From the NCBI RefSeq assembly GCF_006345805.1, contig NC_043006.1, positions 11,346,001 through 11,410,000 of the forward strand: a stretch of 64,000 nt of DNA, read 5' to 3'. This DNA comes from Octopus sinensis (Eukaryota). Of the stretch, positions 2,891 to 61,946 are shown piece by piece (positions within the stretch are counted from its first letter, which is position 1; each line of letters starts with the position of its first letter). The notes below the pieces were generated by a model, which was not told where the DNA came from, ran no database searches, and worked only from the letters and a program-made list of their open reading frames with translations. The position numbers and the translations under genes were made by a program.

Positions 2891-3859
2891 CTGTTGAAAA
2901 ATTAAAAGAACTGGAAGTTAGACACAAAAGGACAAGATATATGCTAAGTTTTAGAATAGAAAAATGCTTCATATTTCCTTTCGTGGCCGTCGTCAGCCTT
3001 GCCTGGCACCTGTGTCAATGGCATGTAAAAAGCACCCACTACACTCACGGAGTGGTTGGCGTTAGGAAGGACATCCAGCTATAGAAACACTGCCAGATCA
3101 GACTGGGCCTGGTGCAGCCTCCTGGCTTCCCAGACTCCAGTCGAACCTTCCAACACATGCTAGCATGGAAAGCGGACGCTAAACGATGATGATGATATTT
3201 CCTTTCTTCCTTGTTATGCTCTATGTTCAAATCCTACAAGAACTTGAGAAGTATTTGCCACTAAACTCCCGGGTCAACTCAAAAGATTACACTTCTTTCC
3301 CTAGAACACTCGTCAGTGTGCCTGTTGTCAAAAGAATATTTGTCAAAGACCTCACAGGTGCTGGTATCATGTAAAAAGCACCCGGTCCAATCTGTGAAGA
3401 GGTTGACATTAGGAAGTGCATCTAGCTGTAAAAACCAAGCCAAAACAGACAGGGGAGCTTGGTGCAATCCCCTGGCTTACCAGCCCCTGTCAAGCTGTCC
3501 CACCCATGCCAGCACAGAAAATGGATGTCAATTGACAATGATGATGATGCGCTTGTCTTCAAGAGACTATTTGTCAATGTGGCTGTAGTCAAAATGGTAT
3601 CTGTCAATGTGCCAGTAGTCAAAAGAATGTGTCAACATGCCTGTCATCTGCCTAAACATTATTTGTCAATGTGCCTGTCATTAAAAGCATATTTGTCAAT
3701 GTGCATATCGTCAAAAGAATATTTTTCCATGTGCCTCCTGTTAGAGAATAATTGTAAACATGCCTAAAAAAACACCCAGTACACTCTGTAAAGTGGTTGG
3801 CATCCAGCCATATAAATTATGTCAAAACACATACTGAAGCCTGGTGTGGGCCTTATAAA

Positions 3860-5891
3860 CTGTGGCAAGAGTATACAAAAAGGACCTCAAGACAATCTCT
3901 CACTTGGAAATAGAGTTGACCTACAAATGCTTGGAGTGGTAGATGATACACAGTCACACTCTGTATATTTTGATAATTTGTTCACAAACTATGATCCGCT
4001 AGTGCACCTCAGGGAAACGGGATCTGAAGCAACTGCTACAATAAGAGATAACTGTCTTGGCATTAGGAAGGGCATCCAGCTGTAGAAACTCTTGCCAGAT
4101 CAAGATTAAAGCCTGGTGCAGCCATCTGGTTTGTCAGCTCCCAGTCATTCGTCCAACCCATGCTAGCATGGAAAGCGGACGTTAAACGATGATGATGATG
4201 ATGACGTCTCAAGAGATGTCTTCTAAAGGAAATGGCATTGATGAAAAAGAAGCCAAAAGTTTCATATGATTATAGATTTGACATCAATAATGAAATCCTT
4301 ATAGATAGGTGTCTTGACAATAAATGTGTGCCAACTGGGACTAATTATAACTCAGTCAAACCAATTTGCAAAGTACAACGCTGGAGGAAAGACATAAAGG
4401 GCAAAAGCAATGTGACTCAACCTCACGTTTTGAGCACATACAACAATTGCATGGCTGGAGTTGACAAACACGATTGGTTAGTGTCAAAATATGCAACCCC
4501 ATTTAGAGGCAGAAAGTGGTACTGGCCATTGCTGACTAGAGTTATTGATATGACTGTTGTAAATGCATGAACTATTTACAAACCGATCCACGATGGAAAA
4601 GGTGAAAAAAATTTACTCAATTTCAAGAGAGTGAGTTCATGGCTGTTTCCTGCCCCAGCTTCACATAGAAGCCCCGGTCCATCCAAAGTGTCTTGGATCG
4701 CAGGATGGCCTGCTGTGCTTTCCTTGGATCGTAGGGTGACCTGCCGTGCTTGAGGAGACCTCTTGAGTCAAGTACATCAACATCTAAAAATCAAATGGAA
4801 ATTGTAGTTGTGATACCTGTGCCAGAGGCACGTAAAAAGCATCATCTGAATGTGGCCGATGCCAGCGCCGCCTTGACTGGCTTCCGTGCCAGTGGCACGT
4901 AAAATGCACCAACCGATTGTGGCTGTTGCCAGCCTCCCCTTGCACCTGTGCCGGTGGCACGTAAAAAGCATCCACTACACTCACGGAGTGGTTGGCATTA
5001 GGAAGGGCATCCAGCTGTAGAAAAACTGCCAGATCTGACTGGAGGTTGGTGCAGCCTCCTGGCTTCTCAGACCCCAGTCGAACCATCCAACTCATGCTAG
5101 CATGGAAAATGGAAGTTAAACGATGATGATGATGATTTATGTGTTTCATATCTAAAGCGATCTGAACAAAAAACAAAGTTCATTACACTATCCACAAGCC
5201 TGACATCAAATTTGATTCAAAAAGCCATATAATAACCAAATGAAATAAGCAACATTGTTGTCAGGATAAGTCTTGCAGTAGTAAACCACTAAATTATTGT
5301 CAGAAGTGCAACATAACCCTGTGTGGAGATTCTTTGCCCTTTCCACAATGCATAGTTTTATGAATGTATATCTTTCAATGTATTATTTTTTGTACTTTTG
5401 TTATTATTTTTTGCATTTTTTGTATTTCAATATATTATTTTTTCGTATTTTTTGTATTTCAATGTAATATTTTTTTTGTAGTTTTTGTAATTCTATGTAT
5501 TATTTTTTGTATTTTTTGTAATTCTATGTATTAGTTTTTTGTATTTTTTGTATTTCAATGTACTATTTTTTTAATTTTTTTGTAATTCAATGTATTATTT
5601 TTTGATATTTTTTGTATTTCAAAGTATTCTTTCAAAAACATTAACCATTTTTTATACAAAATTTAATACCAATAGGATAACAGTTAACTAACATATAAAG
5701 GATTTTGAATTTATGAATGTGTCACATTGTCCCAGCGTTCTATTTATAGGACACTGTGTATTTCCATTTCTACTTGAAGTAAAGGAGTTTAATAATTGAT
5801 TTTTTTTTTTTCATTTTAACCTATTTTCAATCACCTGCGAAAATTTAGAAGTAATATTCAGAAATTTAAGAACTCTGGGACTTAACAGGTT
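3860..5891 (+). mobile_element. Degenerate piggyBac (PGBD2/3-like transposase) with nested retroelement insertions
   Basis: SVYFDNLFT...ATATIRDN and YNNCMAGVDKHDWLVSKY..RGRKWYWPL...VVNA motifs; terminal ctgggacttaacaggtt at ~5875-5891; interrupted at ~4057-4204 and ~4640-5135. Confidence 0.85.
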
Positions 5892-7026: not shown

Positions 7027-7640
7027 TAGTCAGTTAAAGTAAGACAGTGTCACGCTAAGACTATGCACCTTCACTAGTCAGTTAAGGTGAGACAGTGTCA
7101 TGTGACAACTTGCTGGGGCTGCCTGCTGGAGCCTAGCGACAGGTATTTAAAGGGAAAAGTTTGACAAGTCAGTCAGTCACTTGCTGACGATACATCAAAG
7201 AGGCCAGGGAATAGAAGAAAGAAGACATGCACCCAACACGGTTGTAATTCCTTCCTTCCACCCTCATCGGCCATGACTCGCTGCCGTAAAGGAATATACT
7301 GTAGCAATATACTGAGCTTAAGAAGACTTGTCAAGCCAAGTGAGATCGTCATCATGGCTGATTCCGGTATTTAAGTAACTGGTACCCGTGCCGGTGGCAC
7401 ATGAAAAGCATCCACTGCATTCTTGGAGTGGTCAGCATTAGGAAGGGCATCCAGCTGTAGAAACCATGCTGAATCGGACTGGAATCTGGTGCAGCCCCCC
7501 AGCTTACCAGTTTTCAATCAAACCGTCCAACCCATGCTATCATGGTAAAATGGATATTAAGTGGTGATGATGAAGCCCAGGCCAGTCTCAAGTGATTTGG
7601 TATCAAAAGGGTTAAGAAACACAAAAATGATTAAACTTAC

Positions 7641-7740
7641 ATGCAAGGGCACGGTTGTTGTACACAACATCCAAAGGCTGAATTGAGAGGCTTCGGTTAT
7701 AATAAATCACAGCTTCATTGTAGTCACCACTACGAAATGC
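7641..7740 (-). CDS. SPAG1: SPAG1 coding exon 8 (TPR)
   Basis: ttccag|AFRSGDYNEAVIYYNRSLSIQPLDVVYNNRALA|gtaagt, matching human AFNSGDYEEAVMYYTRSISALPTVVAYNNRAQA; 100 nt, phase 0/1. Confidence 0.93.
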
Positions 7741-9109
7741 CTGGAAAGGTGGAAGAAGATGTTGAAGATCAGATGAATGTATCATATAAAAGAAACACAG
7801 TGTGTAAGGAAGCTTGTAAGTAGCAGCAAACAAGAAAGGATCATGTGAAATACAAAGGAAGATCAACAGCAGCAGAGTGAAGGATGAAAGGGGCCTACAA
7901 AAAGAATAGGAAACAAAAACTACACTACACCTGATTTCCTCCGCTCCATATACACGCAAGCATGTATCTGACTCTTACACTGTTCACTTCCCAGACATTT
8001 TGTACATTACTGCATATGCTTTATGCACACTTTTGACAAGTTGTGGTGCACCTGAGCACTGTATACAATAATTTCATCATTATTATTATTATTTATTATC
8101 ATCCTTATGACTGTTTTAACATTCACTTCTCCTTTCACTGAGACAGATTTACTATGGCCAGACACCTTTCCTCTTTCCAAGTAAGGTATTTTCCCCCAAT
8201 GATCAGGTATATTTTCACAGAAAACTGAAAATGAAAAAATGTCATTGATGCTATTGACTTTATAGTAAGACACCTGTTTCTGCCTCTCTATTACATACAT
8301 ACATATATATATAAGTATATATTTCATCTTTTACTGGTTTCAGCCCTTGGATTGTGTTGGGGCACCGCCTTGAAGGGTTTAGTTGAACGAGTCAACACCA
8401 GTGCTCATTCTTTAAGCCTGGTACTTATTCCACCAGTCTCTTTTGCTAAGCTACTAAGTTATGGGGACGGGTTGTCAATAGTAGTGGTGGACAAACATAT
8501 GCACACACACACACACACACACACATGCATGCACAGTCACCCATACACATACTCTTTTCTTTTTACTCTTTTACTTGATTCAGTCATTTGACTGCGGCCA
8601 TGCTGGAGCACCGCCTTTAGTTGAGCAAATCGACCCCAGGACTTATTCTTTGTAAGCCTAGTACTTATTCTATCAGTCTTTTTTGCCGAACCGCTAAGTT
8701 ATGGGGACGTAAACATACCAGCATCAGTTGTCAAACGATGTTGCGGGGACAAACACAGATACATACACACACACACATATATATATATATAGACATATAT
8801 ATACGACGGGCTTCTTTTTCAATTTCCATTTACCAAATCCACTCACAAGGCTTTGGTCGGCCCGAGGCTATAGTAGAAGACACTTGCCCAAGGTACCACG
8901 CAGTGGGACTGAAACCGCAACCATGTTGTTGGTAAGCAAACTACTTACCACATACATAAATATATATTTGCATGTATGCATACAAGAGGTTCCTTTCAAC
9001 TTCTGTCAACCTAATCCACTCACAAAGCCACAGTAGAAGATATGACCAGAACAATGTGGTTCGGAAACAAACTTCATACCACACAGCCCATTGCACATGT
9101 CTGTGTGTA

Positions 9110-16139: not shown

Positions 16140-17870
16140 ATGTATCATTCTACTATTAAGACTTTGGTTTTTGCTAGATTGACTCTAAGGCCCTTCGATT
16201 CTAGACCTTGCTACCACACCTGGAACTTCTCCTCTAGTTTTGATAGTGACTCAGCTATTAGAGCAAGGTCATCAGCATAGAGAAGCTCCCAGGGGCATCC
16301 TGGCTTGAATTCCTCTGTTATTGCTTGGAGGATTATGATGAATAAGAGGGGGCTGAGGACTGATCCTTGGTGGATCCCTGCCCAGAATTCTTCACTATAC
16401 TCATTGCCAACCCTCATCTTACTGACAGTATCCCTATACATGGCTTGTACAGCTCTCACTAACCCCTCATCTATCCCTAGTTTCTGCATTGACCACCGGA
16501 TAAGGGATCGGGGGACGCTGTCAATAGCTTTCTCCATGTCAGCGAAAGCCAGGTAAAGAGGTTTATCTTTGGCTAGATATTTCGGATCTTTGCGGTTTGA
16601 ACGGCAGTTTTTAACATAATTTCTAGGTAACTAAAAAATTTGAAACTTCGTATGCTGGTAGAATGTGTTTATAAAACATATTTTTCTCTTAACTTTATTG
16701 AGAAAATTTGATAGTTTGTAAGATATTTGTTGTTTTTTTCCTTCAATTTCTGCAATTTCAACCAATCACTGATGTCTACTGAGGTAAAAAAAAAAACATT
16801 CTGTGCCGTATAAATATGTCTCTCGTTTAAGAAACAGATTGGGTTTATTTACATTTCCTCCCACCCCTAACATTAACCCTAAAATAGATTGAAATGCAAT
16901 AGATCGATACTAGGGTCATAATTATGGGTGACAATTTCATATGACACCGCAAGAAAAAACTGCCATTCAAACCGAAAAGATCCAATATTTCTTCTGCAAC
17001 CCAAACTGCATCTCATCTAAACTGACTGTCTCCCTAATTAGTTGGACTATGACCCTCTCTGCGACTTTCATTACCTGATCCAACAACTTGATACCTCTGT
17101 AATTATTCGTATCTAATGCATCACCTTTACCTTTATAGCAGTTAACTATAGTGCTGCTACACCAGTCATTGGGTATGACTTCTTCGTGTATCACCTGATT
17201 GACTATACGGGTGACTAGACTATAGCCGACACCACCAGATATTTTAAGCATCTCTACAGTAATTCCTGATGGGCCAGAGGCTTTTCCCTGCCTTCATAGT
17301 CTTAATTGCTTTATCTACCAAGGTACTGTCAATTCGGATAGCTGGTCCCTCTGTTGAGTCGACATTCGGCAGACTCTTTCTTCCATTCCTTCTCTTCATT
17401 TAGCAACCTTTCGTAGTGGCATCTCCAAGTCTCTCTTTTTGCAGTCTCATTAAATGCAAATGAGCCATCATCCATGCATACACATTTCTCTCCTACAACA
17501 TCACGATTCTCTCTCACACACTGTCTTGCAACACAAAACACTTCGAGTCTTTGGTCCTTGTAATGCAGAACATTGACAATTTTTTTTCTTATCTGCTTCC
17601 CTTCCAGCTAAGTAAACCTGTCTCCTAGCTTCCCTTCTGGCAATCTGATGCAATTCCCAGCTACCACCGTTCTTCCAGTCCTTCCATGCCTGTTTCTTTT
17701 CCCTAATGGCCCTGTCGACTACATTGTTCCACCACGACATTACCTTGGGCCGAGAGGGGACTTTGCACCATCCACAAACCTGGTCGGTAGCCCTCAACAG
17801 GTTGTTCCGTAGAAACCTCCTGTGATGCTATATTCCCCTTCTATTTCGTCAAAAGCTTTGAGTAATATGC
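16140..17870 (-). mobile_element. RTE-clade LINE reverse transcriptase remnant
   Basis: YKGKGDALDTNNYRGIKLL, (D)MEKAIDSVPR, GIHQGSVLSPLLF and LLYADDL motifs; frameshifted and split by a MITE. Confidence 0.9.
16584..16983. mobile_element. Merlin-like MITE inserted in an RTE LINE
   Basis: TIRs GGATCTTTGCGGTTTGAACGGCAG / CTGCCATTCAAACCGAAAAGATCC; TSD GATATTTC / AATATTTC; related to 2317-2700. Confidence 0.75.
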
Positions 17871-35323: not shown

Positions 35324-36032
35324 CTATGTTTAAGGGTTGTTTAAGGATGATGAACAAAACACACCTGTGTTTCCAGAGGTGAATTATTCAAACCCCAAAA
35401 AATCCATCTCAACACATGCCTATGATGTTCCCCCACTACTTCTGCTCGTGATCAGAGATGCACATATCATCAGCCACTCAGGGACATGCTCAACTGGTTA
35501 AGATCAGGCAACTGACAAACAAATCTGTGGTATTGAGCAGAATATTTCCTGTAGCCCGTCTTTTATACCAAGACAAAACAATGTACAATTATCATTATTA
35601 ATATTATTATTATTAATATTATTAAGTGAGATGAGAGAATCTTTAGGACACCAGGCAAAATACTTAGCAACATTCTGTCTATCTTTATATACTGAGTTCA
35701 AATTCCACCAAGGTCAACTTTGCCTTTCATCCTTTCAGGATCGATAAATTAAGTACCAGTGAAACACTGGGGTTGATGCACTCAACTAATTTCGAACCCT
35801 AAAATTTCAGGCCTTGTGCCTATAGAAGAAAGGATTGCTGCTACTGATGCTGCCACCACATTGTAAAGTCACAGAAATTTGAAGTTCTGTAAGATGAAAA
35901 AGTGTTTGAATCTTTACAACCTTCTAACATTCTATAAATGGTGCTTATAGTCTGATCAAACAAGTATTAAACTTTGTTATATTTTTGGTTTTAACTATTT
36001 TTATATGCTACAATACACAATACTCTGACTGT

Positions 36033-36122
<90 letters not shown>

Positions 36123-36126
36123 TATA

Positions 36127-36350
36127 TAAATGCAATATGTGATAATTGTTCGGTAGCCATGATGAGGTTCTGAGTTTCGGATGCTGAGGTGGAGGCCCGC
36201 GCTGCTGTCTCTTCAGTTATTTGGCCATCAGCAAAGATTTCTCCGATGGCCGGATAACTGAAGAGATAGCGGCGTGGTTTCCACTTCGGCGTCTGAAGCT
36301 CGGAGTTTTGTTGTGGCTGCCGAGTGAGTGGTTGTCACATATTACATTTA
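36127..36350 (+). ncRNA. Long G.U-rich hairpin (candidate structured RNA)
   Basis: Arms 36127-36229 / 36245-36350, ~100 bp. Manual pairing gives ~26 G.U wobbles, 1 A.C mismatch and 2 bulges. Confidence 0.55.
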
Positions 36351-36814
36351 CAGATAAATTCCTCTATTTACATAATATTGAGATTTGCCTGGTGTCCGAA
36401 AGATTCTCTCATCATCATCGTTTAACGTCCACTTTCCAAGCTAGCATGGGTTCTCAATAATAATTGTCTTGGTATAAAAGATGGGCTACAGCAAATATTC
36501 TGCTCATTACCGCAAATATGTTTTCATTTGCATTGTTACCACTGTATTTCTGAGATTGTCTGGCCTGCACAGATAGTACTTCTGTGTAGAAACACCCGCT
36601 GTTTTGAAGGGGGGGTGCATCAATAATATTTTTAATTTAACTATTTTCGGCAAAAGCGAATATTTTGCAATTTTCTTCAATTATTTAAAGATGGCTCATA
36701 AAGAAGCCATAATAATGTTTGACAAAGGAACGCGTTCCTTGTCCAGAAAAATGAGATGTACGCTGTATTTCATACAATCCATTATACATGACCGCGTGTG
36801 TACCGTTGGCGATT

Positions 36815-38586: not shown

Positions 38587-39075
38587 ATTATTTGAGGGAA
38601 TATTAATCCTAACTAACAGGGAAAAAATTCAATTTAGAAATACTAAATCAAATTTCACACAATATAATATATATTTATAAAAATTAGAAAAAAAACACCT
38701 TTTATCAATTCAAAATGAACAATTAAATTACACCATCTAGAAAATTACATATAACAGAAATATTAAAATTAAAATAACAATAAAATACCAATGATTAAGT
38801 AAATTGCAAAAAAATAATAAAAACGTATATAATTGGTAGAATAACGACACGTGTTATTAATTTTTTTATTATAATCATTGCTTAAATATAGCCACAAAAC
38901 ATGTCTTTATTCTACCAATTATATACGTTTTTATTATCTTTTTGCAATTTACTTAATCATTGGTATTTCATTGTTATTTTATTTTTAATATTTCTGTTAT
39001 ATGTAATTTTCTAGGGGGTGTAATTTAATTGTTCATTTTGAATTGATAAATGGTGATTTTTTTCTAATTTTTATA
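38584..39075. mobile_element. Inverted Penelope-type pLTR pair (arms ~38676-38844 / 38907-39075) between (TA)n tracts
   Basis: ~169-bp near-perfect AT-rich inverted repeat; similar to the terminus at 63780-63840. Confidence 0.6.
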
Positions 39076-39128: not shown

Positions 39129-41166
39129 TGAAATGCGTTTTTACCGCTTGGTTCGCTTTCAATGCCACTACATCCCGTCCGATTCGCTCCAAAATTTACA
39201 GGGACACGTAGAATGAGGTGACGATGCGCGTGGGCTACCTTACAAATCCCTATCTTAAAAGGTGTGGTTGCTAGGGGCCATCTTCCTACCTCACCCTATT
39301 TCCTCCAGTACTCTGTCACTCCTCTTCATTTGACAATGCAACTACCGTTATTTAATGTAAAGTCTTCCTCAAATCACTCTGTCGCGATTTACTCTCTTCC
39401 AAGAACATTTTCACTCACTCTTATCTCTTACCTTCCTATACATTTTACTCATGTATCTATCAGCGTTCATGGACAGTAACAAATATTACATCGCCATCCC
39501 CATCCCCATCGCATTCTATTGTCTACCTGTCAACACACATATATATACATATATCTAATATTATAGTTTTATTTTTGTTTTTTTTACTGTTTCATTTCCC
39601 TATTAGTGGTTTTATCTCTAATTTAATTTCTACAGCGTGCACACACACACACACACACACACCTATATGTGGCCCCAGTACACCCGAATGAAATCGGGTT
39701 CTCTTCATCAAAATGTGAAAAGGGGTCTACAATTATCATCGCCACAACTTATGTATGTCTTCCTCACTCACTCTTTTTCCTAATGATAATTATCATCGCC
39801 ACCACCAACACACAATCGGGACAATCTTTCTCTTATAACAAATCATGTTTACATTGCAACGACGTCTGCCACCTCCGCCGTCTCTATTTATTCTGCAAAT
39901 GACCAGAACTCGGGAAACTTGGTTTAGTGTTCTATGGTCTATGACCAGAACTCGGGAAACTTGCTTGAGTGTTCTATGGTCTATGACCAGAACTCGGGAA
40001 ACTTGCTTGACTGTTCTATGGTCTATGACCAGAAATCGGGAAACTTGGTTGAGTGTTCTATGGTCTATGACCAGAACTTGGGAAACTTGGTTGAGTCCTC
40101 ATCTTATAAAATGTGGCCCCAGTACACCCAAATGAAATCGGGTTATATTAACCAAAAGGTGAAAAGGGGTATAAATGGGGCTGGAAGGGGATTAAAATTT
40201 AAAGGAGCGGGTGTTTAGCAATTCTCTGTTACATCAAGCTAAAAAATTTCCTCCAGCCTTTTAATCGTCAATGTGTTGCCGTCCATGATGAAGAAGTTTT
40301 GAATGCTTGCCATCGTGAGTCTACTGTCGTGAGAAAGAATCAAGTCAAAACTTGGTTTTTAGGGATTTTCTTTTACATCAAGTTCAAAATTTTACGCCAG
40401 CCGTTGAACTGTCAATACGTTGCTATCCGTCGTTAAGAAATGCCAGCCATGGTGACTCTACTATCCTCAAAGTCTATCCCTTCAAACTTTGGTTTCCAAT
40501 ATTTTATTATTTTTATTCAGCTCGCAAGTTCGTCTGTCCCTTTTAAATGTTAGTGTTTTCCTGTCTGTCTTGAAGCAGACCTTTCCTTTGTAACTGCCTG
40601 ATATTTATGATTGATCTTTCTAAATATTTTATTTCTCAACTTACTCAAGATCTTTTGTTGTTTATAAATGGGAGAGAGATAGATGAAGATAGAGAGTAAG
40701 AGATAGCGAGGGAGAGTCCGAGAGAAAGGAAGAGTAAGAGAGTGGGAAAGTGAGAGAGAAAGGAGAAAGAAACAAAGAGGGAGAATCATCATCATCATCA
40801 TCATCGTTTAACGTCCGTTTTCCGTGCTAGCACGGGTTGGACAGTTTGACAGGGGTCTGGGAAGCCAGGAGGCTGCACCAGGCTCCAGTCTGATCTGGCA
40901 GTGTTTCGACAGGTGGATGCCCTTCCTAACGCCAACCACTCTGTGAGCGTAGTGGGTGCTTTTTTCGTGCCGCCTGCACAGGTGCCAGGGGGGCTGGCAG
41001 CGGCCACGTTCGGTTGGTGCTTTTTACGTGCCACCAGCACAGAAGCCAGTCAAGGCGGCGCTGCAATCTGCCACGTTCGGATGGTGCTTTTTACGTGCTG
41101 AAAGGAAGCAACAGAAAGTAACAACCACACTCTTACCCGCGCGTAGAGCGGGTCACCTTCAGCTAG
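39115..41166 (+). mobile_element. Helitron-like element containing a 42-bp tandem repeat and a nested LINE 3' UTR
   Basis: TATAAAA..ccgattcgctccaaaattt 5' signature; 3' ACCCGC-gcgtaga-GCGGGT hairpin followed by CTAG|T at 41166. That both ends belong to one element is inferred. Confidence 0.55.
39899..40097. repeat. 42-bp tandem repeat x~4.7
   Basis: ATGACCAGAACTCGGGAAACTTG(C/G)TTGAGTGTTCTATGGTCT units. Confidence 0.9.
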
Positions 41167-61735: not shown

Positions 61736-61946
61736 TATCCAGAGGTAATGCAGTACAATCGTTTCGTGCGACTCCATTTAATTGAATTGATCCAGGAGTC
61801 ACATGAAACGATCGTACTGCATTACCTCTGGATATCCTTGTTGTTTATTTTAATTTAAATTGCCTTATTTTGAATTGTATGGATAATTACCATACTAAAT
61901 TCTGGTGCCTTAACTTAAGTACCATATTCATCTGAATCTAAATTTT
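61736..61946 (+). mobile_element. Penelope pLTR fragment with inverted duplication and 3' half of a hammerhead
   Basis: Arms 61736-61775 / 61795-61834; GAAAC-GATC-GTA at 61805-61816; ends in (TA)n. Confidence 0.6.

What the first reader, a model, noticed from the sequence alone, without database searches (positions are those of the whole stretch)
36127..36350. ~100-bp hairpin whose mismatches are almost all G.U wobbles on one strand
Seen: pairing 36127-36229 with 36245-36350 by hand gives ~26 G.U/U.G pairs, one A.C mismatch, a 1-nt bulge and a 4-nt bulge. A neutrally decaying DNA inverted repeat should give G.T and A.C about equally; the fold-backs at 61736-61834 and 38676-39075 show no such bias. 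The duplex is therefore preserved only in plus-strand RNA (antisense to SPAG1) while the DNA palindrome is eroded. Both arms also retain a hammerhead-like skeleton (ATAA-CTGAAGA...GAA(A/G)C), and the element abuts (TA)n like the Penelope termini. Inference: a selected hairpin RNA (endo-siRNA/hpRNA-like), or a retrocopy of an ADAR-hyperedited dsRNA (coleoids edit heavily), or a structured retroelement end.
Basis: partly seen in the sequence, partly recalled or inferred. Interest (0 to 1): 0.75.

Follow-up and report, generated by a model that had tools for sequence, protein, structure and literature searches.

The report
RNA-editing scars frozen into DNA
One copy of a common hairpin repeat carries 15 A-to-G changes on one strand, all inside its paired stem, most likely because an ADAR-edited RNA from another chromosome was reverse-transcribed and pasted in here, which would be a rare trace of RNA editing written back into a genome.

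Summary
Positions 36127-36350 fold on the + strand into 101 pairs: 75 Watson-Crick, 26 G.U, one C.A mismatch, a 1-nt bulge and a 4-nt bulge. The - strand folds far worse.

The hairpin is one copy of a high-copy palindromic repeat flanked by (TA)n. None of 51 paralogs examined shows the bias. The window copy is a derived insertion: 35929-36516 interrupts another repeat ('Z') that is contiguous in 39 other copies. Its main piece, 35934-36382, duplicates a locus on contig C4.

The unpaired flanks of the two copies differ at 2 of 130 bases. The stem carries 15 window-specific A>G changes (15 of 57 stem A against 0 of 49 non-stem A). None follows a 5' G (0 of 15). They sit in two facing tracts where about half the A's changed. 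The C>T changes are at background level.

The edited strand is the sense strand of a claudin-like gene that ends 690 nt upstream of the C4 source. Best reading (about 0.7): a fossil of ADAR hyperediting, reverse-transcribed and captured at a chromosome break with no target-site duplication and no poly(A).

Selection for a hairpin RNA, a hammerhead and a Penelope end are not supported.

The parts
35640..35928 (+). Left half of the interrupted 'Z' repeat copy (SINE-like head plus body). This is the target of the insertion.
   Evidence: more than 4000 first-look candidates match 35640-35836, and one copy (L086) matches through 35927; other Z copies run straight on into the sequence that the window holds at 36517-36660.
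35929..35933 (.). Left junction: a few bases (CATTC) assignable neither to Z nor clearly to the donor. About 9 nt of the Z target are missing and there is no target-site duplication.
   Evidence: Alignment of 12 Z copies with both window halves; pairwise alignment with the C4 sister copy.
35934..36031 (+). Copied non-repeat flank of the donor locus. It is unedited.
   Evidence: There are only 2 copies in the 2.72-Gb genome, the window and C4:118707713-118707814 on the minus strand, at 99% identity. They differ at 1 of 98 bases, and 0 of 32 A's changed to G.
36032..36126 (.). (TA)n microsatellite, longer here than in the donor copy. It carries no G or C substitutions.
36127..36229 (+). 5' arm of the hairpin. 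The edited tract is 36148-36207, where 8 of 16 ancestral A's are now G.
36230..36244 (+). Loop. It has no window-specific change.
36245..36350 (+). 3' arm of the hairpin. The edited tract is 36291-36331, where 7 of 12 ancestral A's are now G. It also holds a 4-nt G/T-only insertion at about 36325-36331 and a 1-nt deletion after 36277.
36351..36382 (+). First 32 nt of the family's unpaired outer arm, cut short here. It is unedited.
   Evidence: It differs from the C4 copy at 1 of 32 bases. The family majority shows that this change belongs to the C4 copy.
36383..36516 (.). Right part of the insertion: a mosaic of short repeat pieces. 36384-36413 and 36464-36523 are inverted relatives of 35630-35659 and 35517-35576. 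36409-36452 is a 44-nt piece identical to many copies of an abundant SINE.
   Evidence: Whether this part arrived in the same event as the C4 piece is not resolved.
36517..36660 (+). Right half of the interrupted Z repeat copy.

Best explanation
The hairpin is a derived copy of a locus on contig C4, inserted into another repeat, and its G.U bias comes mainly from 15 A>G changes confined to the paired stem, most likely because the donor transcript's hairpin was hyperedited by ADAR (A to I, read as G) and then reverse-transcribed and captured at a chromosome break.

Shown directly:
- The window copy is an insertion with an intact donor elsewhere.
- The unpaired flanks are about 99% identical to the donor, while the stem carries 15 A>G changes against 1 T>C.
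- No edited A follows a G.
- About half of the A's changed in two facing tracts of the duplex.
- The edited strand is the sense strand of the gene next to the donor.

Inferred:
- The enzyme was ADAR.
- An RNA intermediate was reverse-transcribed.
- The insertion happened by break repair (class-2 templated insertion, or endonuclease-independent retro-insertion) rather than by target-primed retrotransposition.
- Editing may have helped reverse transcriptase pass an otherwise about 100-bp perfect hairpin by weakening it.

The other 11 G.U pairs come from C>T changes. Five or six of them predate the duplication and 5 are ordinary later decay, 2 of them at CpG. The near-absence of A.C mismatches is partly chance. 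No present function needs to be assumed.
For: (1) Family and outlier. The hairpin belongs to a repeat with at least 1896 first-look candidates. Among 21 paralogs, G.U counts are 0-9 and balanced between strands. Measured against the family majority, 39 paralogs have A>G 0-4. A further 12 paralogs, chosen by their outer arm, have A>G 0-2 and T>C 0-5. The window copy has A>G 15.

(2) Polarity. At all 15 sites, 35-39 of 39 paralogs carry A, and so does the sister copy.

(3) Burst confined to the duplex. Against the sister copy L002, the flanks differ at 1 of 98 and 1 of 32 bases. A>G is 15 of 57 stem A's against 0 of 49 non-stem A's (Fisher p 3.6e-5). A>G 15/57 against T>C 1/60 gives p 7.6e-5. 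There are no transversions in the stem.

(4) ADAR-like context. The 5' neighbour of the edited A is T in 6/15, A in 6/15, C in 3/11 and G in 0/15 (G against non-G, p 0.005). This matches the published 5'-G avoidance (passages read in PMC8586724 and PMC2873906).

(5) Density. 8/16 and 7/12 A's changed in the two facing tracts, and 0/29 elsewhere in the stem.

(6) Direction of copying. 35929-36516 interrupts a Z repeat. All 40 matches listed (the query itself plus 39 others, out of 350 candidates) span the junction uninterrupted. The 12 copies aligned show about 9 nt of target lost, no target-site duplication and no poly(A). The left flank exists only in the window and on C4 (2 of 2 candidates). 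These features match class-2 templated insertions, which are reported to derive from reverse-transcribed RNA (passages read in PMC5110952).

(7) Donor strand. Window + corresponds to C4 minus. A terminal coding exon with a Claudin_2 match (E 1.7e-8, 34.9 bits, cut-off 29.1) ends with TAA at C4:118708504-6 on the minus strand, 690 nt upstream of the donor segment.

(8) The genome encodes A_deamin domains at several loci, and reverse transcriptase ORFs are present in the window.

(9) Not an artefact of this assembly. Contigs of public runs X9 and X2, laid at 95% likeness or more, cover 36138-36280 and 36160-36236 plus 36292-36324. No other letter is listed at 12 of the 15 A>G sites.
Against: - There is no poly(A) and no target-site duplication, and no spliced junction was available to check. 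The RNA intermediate therefore rests on the editing footprint and on the donor's strand.
- Only the last exon of the neighbouring gene was found. No further exon turned up among 139 minus-strand ORFs over about 15 kb. AATAAA and ATTAAA hexamers lie both before and after the donor segment. It is therefore not shown that the 3' UTR reaches the hairpin.
- No listed run is on record as RNA.
- The 3' neighbour of the edited A is G in 0 of 8 cases, whereas ADAR2-type enzymes are usually said to like a 3' G (recalled).
- The (TA)n tract, which could also pair as RNA, shows no A>G.
- Window-specific C>T 5 against G>A 0 (p 0.02) is a mild extra asymmetry that ADAR does not explain.
- Contigs in runs X1, X2 and X9 read the ancestral letter at 36199 (A) and at 36203, 36221 and 36222 (C). 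At least one A>G and three C>T may therefore be later changes or polymorphic, all four again of the G.U-making kind.
- The right 134 bp of the insertion is a mosaic whose timing is unknown.
Confidence: 0.7

Rival explanations
1. DNA-level copying with in-situ or hybrid editing. The segment was copied as DNA. The A>G changes were introduced later at this locus, by ADAR acting on the DNA strand of an RNA:DNA hybrid (R-loop) stabilised by the hairpin, or by repair of a break in the palindrome templated by an edited local transcript.
For: The ADAR-like context and the confinement to the duplex fit any ADAR-dependent route. The run contigs with the ancestral letter at 36199, 36203, 36221 and 36222 hint that not all changes arose at once. 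There are no retrocopy hallmarks.
Against: An R-loop hybrid would not be limited to the intramolecular stem, nor would it spare the adjacent copied flank (0 of 49 non-stem A's changed). This route needs two unrelated rare events, a DNA transfer between contigs and then local editing. One RNA-mediated event explains both the copy and the edits. ADAR action on DNA in hybrids is known to me only from in-vitro work (recalled).
Confidence: 0.1
2. Error-prone DNA synthesis. A translesion-type polymerase (T:G mispairing at WA motifs) copied the + strand through the hairpin during templated break repair or replication of the palindrome and (TA)n region.
For: 12 of 15 changed A's follow A or T. Palindromes next to (TA)n are difficult templates (established knowledge). 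The junctions look like break repair.
Against: About half of the A's changed in two tracts, with no transversion in 202 stem positions. The AT-rich copied flank was synthesised in the same event and has 0 of 32 A's changed. Known low-fidelity polymerases also produce other substitutions (recalled).
Confidence: 0.08
3. Selected hairpin RNA (hpRNA, endo-siRNA or similar). Purifying selection on a +-strand transcript let only G.U-preserving transitions survive.
For: There are 26 G.U pairs against 1 A.C. Window-specific C>T 5 against G>A 0. The four possibly later changes are all G.U-making.
Against: Selection cannot raise the substitution rate. The stem gained at least 21 transitions while the 130 nt of copied flank differ from the donor at 2 positions. 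None of the 51 paralogs shows the bias. The excess is A>G only, with an enzyme-like neighbour rule. The fold is weaker than that of most clean paralogs (-153.5 kcal/mol against -149 to -210 in the same orientation). No Rfam family matches.
Confidence: 0.04
4. Assembly or polishing artefact in a palindrome.
For: Palindromes next to microsatellites are error-prone in long-read assemblies. No run held more than 0.33 of the sampled words, and the one whole-genome-sized DNA run laid (X21, another coded organism) has no cover at 36204-36225 or 36281-36324.
Against: Independent short-read-derived contigs from two coded organisms and two studies reproduce the changed letters at 12 of 15 sites. The errors would also have to be A>G only, avoid a 5' G, and stop at the stem boundaries.
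Confidence: 0.03

Closest known systems
ADAR hyperediting (hypermutation) of long dsRNA, as seen in viral genomes and in inverted-repeat hairpins of transcripts
   Same: Clustered A>G on one strand; confined to a long, nearly perfect duplex; about half of the adenosines changed; 5' G avoided (neighbour rule from PMC8586724 and PMC2873906, passages read).
   Different: Here the changes are in genomic DNA, not in RNA reads, so they must have passed through reverse transcription or an equivalent write-back step. No RNA evidence was obtained.
Class-2 templated sequence insertions (patches of reverse-transcribed RNA at double-strand breaks) and endonuclease-independent LINE-mediated insertion
   Same: The donor is intact at a distant locus. 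The insert is short (about 450 bp) and comes from sequence that would be transcribed. There is no target-site duplication and no poly(A), there is a microdeletion at the target, and extra short pieces sit at one junction (PMC5110952, passages read).
   Different: Those were described in human cells and populations. Their RNA origin was inferred from inhibitor and transfection experiments. Here an editing footprint would be the evidence. Reverse-transcriptase dependence cannot be tested from sequence.
APOBEC-edited retroelements fixed in vertebrate genomes (G>A clusters)
   Same: A nucleic-acid deaminase footprint frozen into the germline through a retro-copied sequence; detected by comparing paralogs and polarising the changes against a family consensus (method passage read in PMC4866542).
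   Different: The enzyme and the substrate differ (A>G in dsRNA rather than C>U in cDNA). The carrier is a fragment of a host transcript, not an autonomous retroelement.
Hairpin-RNA (hpRNA) or endo-siRNA loci built from inverted repeats
   Same: A long inverted repeat able to fold as an RNA of about 100 bp.
   Different: There is no sign of selection on pairing and no small-RNA data. The G.U bias has a mutational origin.

Membership tests
ADAR hyperediting footprint | Cluster of A>G on one strand, polarised against the ancestor, with few T>C | tested here: met
   A>G 15 of 57 against T>C 1 of 60 stem positions, window-specific. 35-39 of 39 paralogs carry A at each site.
ADAR hyperediting footprint | Confined to a double-stranded RNA region | tested here: met
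   15 of 57 stem A's changed against 0 of 49 A's in the copied flank, loop and outer arm.
ADAR hyperediting footprint | Depletion of G immediately 5' of edited A | tested here: met
   0 of 15 with a 5' G against 15 of 41 with other neighbours, p 0.005.
ADAR hyperediting footprint | Enrichment of G 3' of edited A (ADAR2-type; recalled) | tested here: not met
   0 of 8 A's with a 3' G were edited. Numbers are small.
ADAR hyperediting footprint | Organism encodes ADAR-type deaminases | tested here: met
   A_deamin (PF02137) matches above the cut-off at several loci of the genome. dsRNA-binding domains were not checked.
ADAR hyperediting footprint | Donor RNA seen edited at these sites | not testable with these tools
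   No listed run is on record as RNA. The second read-laying request did not complete.
Class-2 templated insertion / RNA patch at a break | Insertion relative to an empty site, with the donor retained elsewhere | tested here: met
   Z copies are contiguous across the site. The donor flank is present only on C4.
Class-2 templated insertion / RNA patch at a break | No target-site duplication and no poly(A); microdeletion or filler at the junctions | tested here: met
   About 9 nt of Z are lost, a few filler bases sit at the left junction, and mosaic pieces sit at the right.
Class-2 templated insertion / RNA patch at a break | Donor is transcribed, in the sense that matches the copy | tested here: inconclusive
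   The donor lies 690-1085 nt downstream of a Claudin_2 terminal exon on the same strand as the edited strand. The extent of the transcript is unknown.
hpRNA / endo-siRNA locus | Pairing maintained by selection; small RNAs produced | tested here: not met
   The changes came as a burst relative to the flanks, and the paralogs are unbiased. Small RNAs are not testable here.
Hammerhead ribozyme / retrozyme / Penelope-like terminus | Match to hammerhead covariance models | tested here: not met
   No hammerhead hit at E up to 10 in 35400-36700 on either strand.
MITE (for the repeat family itself) | Terminal inverted repeats, target-site duplication, high copy number, no coding capacity | tested here: inconclusive
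   The family is high-copy, has a palindromic core and is about 300 nt long. Most copies have only one of the two outer arms. Both flanks are (TA)n, so a TA duplication cannot be read. The superfamily was not established.
APOBEC-type C-to-U editing | Clustered C>T or G>A above background | tested here: not met
   Window-specific C>T is 5 (2 at CpG) and G>A is 0. The sister copy has 6 lineage-specific transitions, and paralogs have C>T 0-9.

The most novel reading that the evidence does not exclude
Edited RNA is written back into the germline genome of this animal. Hyperedited hairpin transcripts are reverse-transcribed and used to patch chromosome breaks, so ADAR editing directly seeds heritable A>G substitutions. 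That would be a physical route for 'hard-wiring' edits. The footprint could be used genome-wide as a marker for RNA-derived DNA.
Probability: 0.2. Interest if true: 0.85.

Novelty: new variant of a known kind. Interest (0 to 1): 0.6.

Why it matters
If the reading holds, this locus is a dated, sequence-level record that an ADAR-edited host transcript re-entered the germline as DNA.

It also gives independent, enzyme-specific evidence that a break-repair-type templated insertion, without poly(A) or target-site duplication, came from RNA.

It turns a long-standing question into a concrete scan: does RNA editing ever feed back into the genome, and how often? The scan would compare paralogous copies of hairpin-bearing segments for strand-specific, stem-confined A>G clusters with 5'-G depletion.

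In an animal said to edit heavily, the rate of such events bears on how edited sites become genomic G's.

If the reading is wrong, the locus is still an unusual case of strand-specific hypermutation limited to a palindrome.

My paper searches found APOBEC-type fossils and ADAR editing in RNA and in viruses. They found no report of an ADAR footprint in a templated insertion or in a mollusc genome. The library lacks most subscription journals, so this is not proof that none is in print.

Tried and rejected
- **Hammerhead, retrozyme or Penelope end.** The Rfam scan at E up to 10 gave no ribozyme. Rejected.
- **Naive polarisation against the family majority.** It gave a mixed A>G and C>T result. 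I replaced it with the three-way comparison using the sister copy.
- **CpG decay as the whole explanation.** Only 2 of the 5 window-specific C>T changes, plus the ambiguous 36203, are at CpG, and none of the A>G can be. Rejected.
- **Other hyperedited family members.** None turned up among 39 + 12 paralogs. Both samples are small and were chosen by similarity, and 17 of 29 outer-arm loci had no core match of 150 nt or more and were dropped. The frequency in the family remains unknown.
- **Canonical retrocopy hallmarks.** No target-site duplication and no poly(A).
- **The outer inverted repeat (35517-35659 / 36384-36523) as the ends of a transposon carrying the hairpin.** The arms are only 90-97% alike, their middles are unrelated, and the right one is a mosaic. 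Not pursued.
- **Host-gene orientation in the window.** Only a sub-threshold TPR_2 hit. SPAG1 was not verified.
- **Upstream exons of the claudin-like gene.** None among 139 short minus-strand ORFs over about 15 kb.
- **Poly(A) signals.** Hexamers lie on both sides of the donor, so they are uninformative.
- **Sequencing runs.** No RNA holder is listed. The best share of sampled words is 0.33. In the first laying, the parts without cover were 36281-36291 in all four runs, and 36204-36225 and 36292-36324 in X21.
- **Second read-laying request** (X3, X6, X10, X12 at 90% likeness). It was sent 12 times and never answered, so the 'intermediate allele' seen could not be followed up.
- **Earlier findings of this scan.** None for this genome.

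Full report
**Observation.** The + strand of 36120-36360 folds into one long hairpin of -154.1 kcal/mol (z -18.7; 0 of 200 shuffles fold as well). The - strand reaches only -101 kcal/mol. The pair table has 101 pairs: 75 Watson-Crick and 26 G.U. It also shows one C.A mismatch (36133/36344), a 1-nt bulge (36198), a 4-nt bulge (36325-36328) and a 15-nt loop (36230-36244).

**What the hairpin belongs to.** A search of the window's own 2.72-Gb genome gave 1896 first-look candidates, of which 40 were scored.
- The 21 paralogs fetched with flanks are near-perfect palindromes with 0-9 G.U pairs on either strand, and no strand bias.
- Their alignment shows a core hairpin of about 220 nt plus a roughly 75-nt outer arm on one side only in most copies. 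Most copies are flanked by (TA)n.
- The (TA)n next to the window copy is therefore a family trait.
- The family looks MITE-like, but I could not establish its class.
- Rfam finds no hammerhead or other curated RNA here at E up to 10.

**Polarising the changes.** Against the majority of the 21 paralogs, the window copy shows A>G 15, C>T 11, T>C 3 and G>A 2. It also has 2 transversions in the loop, a 4-nt insertion and a 1-nt deletion. Two controls change that reading.
- **Per-copy spectra.** 39 paralogs have A>G 0-4, C>T 0-9, T>C 0-3 and G>A 0-6. A further 12 paralogs were picked through their outer arm, out of 29 such loci; the other 17 had no core match of 150 nt or more. These 12 have A>G 0-2 and T>C 0-5. 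Only the A>G count of the window copy lies outside the family range.
- **A sister copy.** L002 (contig C4, minus strand) shares with the window copy a 98-nt non-repeat flank. That flank occurs only twice in the genome (2 of 2 candidates). The two flanks differ at 1 of 98 bases. The 32-nt outer-arm piece differs at 1 of 32.

Using L002 plus the family majority as the ancestor:
- Window-specific changes are A>G 15, C>T 5 and T>C 1, plus one ambiguous site (36203), the insertion and the deletion.
- L002-specific changes are G>A 4, C>T 1 and T>C 1.

The window copy's non-A>G changes are therefore at the sister copy's background level. Five further C>T changes predate the duplication.

**Shape of the A>G burst.**
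- 15 of 57 stem A's changed against 1 of 60 stem T's (p 7.6e-5).
- 0 of 49 A's changed in the copied flank, the loop and the outer arm (p 3.6e-5).
- The 5' neighbour of a changed A is T in 6/15, A in 6/15, C in 3/11 and G in 0/15 (p 0.005 for G against the rest).
- The changes sit in two tracts that face each other in the duplex: 36148-36207 (8 of 16 A's) and 36291-36331 (7 of 12 A's). Elsewhere in the stem, 0 of 29 A's changed.
- No stem position has a transversion.
- The 4-nt insertion is made of G and T only. It would be consistent with a small A/T-rich duplication that was then edited, but that is only an inference.

This is the known signature of promiscuous ADAR action on long dsRNA. The 5'-G avoidance is described in PMC8586724 and PMC2873906 (passages read). 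The 'about half of the adenosines' figure I recall and did not check. The genome encodes A_deamin domains at several loci.

**Direction and mode of copying.**
- The sequence left of the copied segment (35640-35928) and the sequence at 36517-36660 are the two halves of one copy of another repeat, Z.
- In L086, and in all 40 matches listed out of 350 candidates, Z runs uninterrupted across this point.
- Aligning 12 Z copies shows that about 9 nt of target are missing. There is no target-site duplication and no poly(A).
- So 35929-36516 is an insertion, and the window copy is the derived one.
- It consists of the C4-derived piece (35934-36382) plus 134 bp of short repeat fragments. Those fragments include a 44-nt piece identical to many copies of an abundant SINE. 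Whether they arrived in the same event is unknown.
- These junction features are those of class-2 templated insertions. The authors of PMC5110952 (passages read) attribute such insertions to reverse-transcribed RNA patches at double-strand breaks.

**The donor.** Window + corresponds to C4 minus. On C4 minus, an ORF with a Claudin_2 match covers the end of the Pfam profile (positions 126-192 of 192; E 1.7e-8; 34.9 bits against a cut-off of 29.1). It stops at C4:118708504-6, which is 690 nt upstream of the donor segment C4:118707419-118707814. The strand that carries the A>G changes is therefore the sense strand of that gene's downstream region, where a 3' UTR would lie. I found no further exons within about 15 kb. 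Poly(A)-signal hexamers lie on both sides of the donor. Transcription through the hairpin is therefore plausible but not shown.

**Independent sequence support.** No run held more than a third of the sampled words, and none is on record as RNA. Laying contigs of four runs at 95% likeness or more gave two results.
- Most cover came from the family-shared parts. Even so, run X9 covers 36138-36280, and run X2 covers 36160-36236 and 36292-36324.
- Other letters are listed only at 36199 (A) and at 36203, 36221 and 36222 (C). X1 also reads C at 36221 and 36222.

So 12 of the 15 A>G letters are reproduced in data from two coded organisms. One site reads the ancestral A, and two sites (36291, 36326) are not covered. 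The four differing sites are all ancestral states. This points to an allele or orthologue with slightly fewer changes. I could not follow this up, because the second laying request did not complete (12 attempts).

**Interpretation.** One RNA-mediated event explains all of the following:
- the transfer between contigs of a fragment that respects no repeat boundary;
- the break-repair-type junctions;
- the strand of the changes;
- their confinement to the part of the transcript that would be double-stranded;
- the neighbour rule.

I therefore read the locus as a fossil of ADAR hyperediting (confidence 0.7).

**Rivals.**
- An ADAR-dependent in-situ route after a DNA-level copy: 0.1.
- Low-fidelity DNA synthesis through the hairpin: 0.08. 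It is disfavoured by the absence of transversions and by the untouched AT-rich flank.
- Selection for a +-strand hairpin RNA: 0.04. Selection cannot create a burst, and the family shows no bias.
- Assembly artefact: 0.03.

**Weak points of the favoured reading.**
- No direct RNA evidence.
- No 3'-G preference (0 of 8).
- An unedited (TA)n tract.
- A mild C>T over G>A excess (5 against 0).
- Possibly later changes at four sites.

**Novelty.**
- Deaminase footprints frozen in genomes are well documented for APOBEC (PMC4866542 and PMC2873906, passages read).
- ADAR hypermutation is well known in RNA and in viruses (PMC8586724, passages read).
- My four searches found no report of an ADAR footprint in a templated insertion or in a mollusc genome. 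The library is incomplete, and I recall, without having seen it here, a review arguing that ADAR-edited retroelements can re-enter genomes.

I rate the finding a new variant of a known kind, with interest 0.6.

Noticed in passing
window 35517-35576 / 36464-36523 and 35630-35659 / 36384-36413: Outer inverted repeat around the whole region: 60 nt at 90% and 30 nt at 97% complementary. The middles are unrelated, so these are two family members in opposite orientation, not a recent fold-back.
   Followed up: partly
L002-L022 (alignment): The hairpin repeat family is asymmetric. Most copies carry the roughly 75-nt outer arm on one side only, and the other side is replaced by (TA)n at the same point. 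Nearly all copies sit between (TA)n tracts.
   Followed up: partly
window 16214-16630 (-), 3816-4567 (+), 39928-40215 (+), 7615-7974 (-): Pfam hits on ORFs: RVT_1 (E 4e-13); piggyBac-like DDE_Tnp_1_7 in two ORFs (E 1.7e-12 and 2.9e-5); an OCRE domain just above the cut-off; and a sub-threshold TPR_2.
   Followed up: no
G000:C2502:263721-264758 (L104): A full-length A_deamin match (profile 1-329) lies in one stretch with 6 in-frame stops. It may be a processed pseudogene of an ADAR-like gene.
   Followed up: no
L088 (G000:C29:5052970-5056161), positions 19-918: A 68-nt unit matching window 35520-35587 at 92-97% recurs about every 139 bp, at least 7 times. Part of the sequence left of the insertion therefore belongs to a tandem-repeat family.
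   Followed up: no
L116:824-1204 (-), L113:1123-1536 (-), L116:2258-2680 (+): Near the C4 donor: Mos1-type HTH_48 and Tc3-type HTH transposase fragments, and a DUF6451 match.
   Followed up: no
window 36409-36452: A 44-nt fragment is 100% identical to many dispersed copies of a very abundant SINE. Contig word depth there is in the millions in run X21.
   Followed up: partly
L014 (G000:C14:65525166-65528386): This is the only paralog with a noticeable strand difference in G.U pairs (9 against 3). It comes from C>T 8 against G>A 2, not from A>G (1). The orientation was chosen by best match to the window query, which biases towards C>T.
   Followed up: partly
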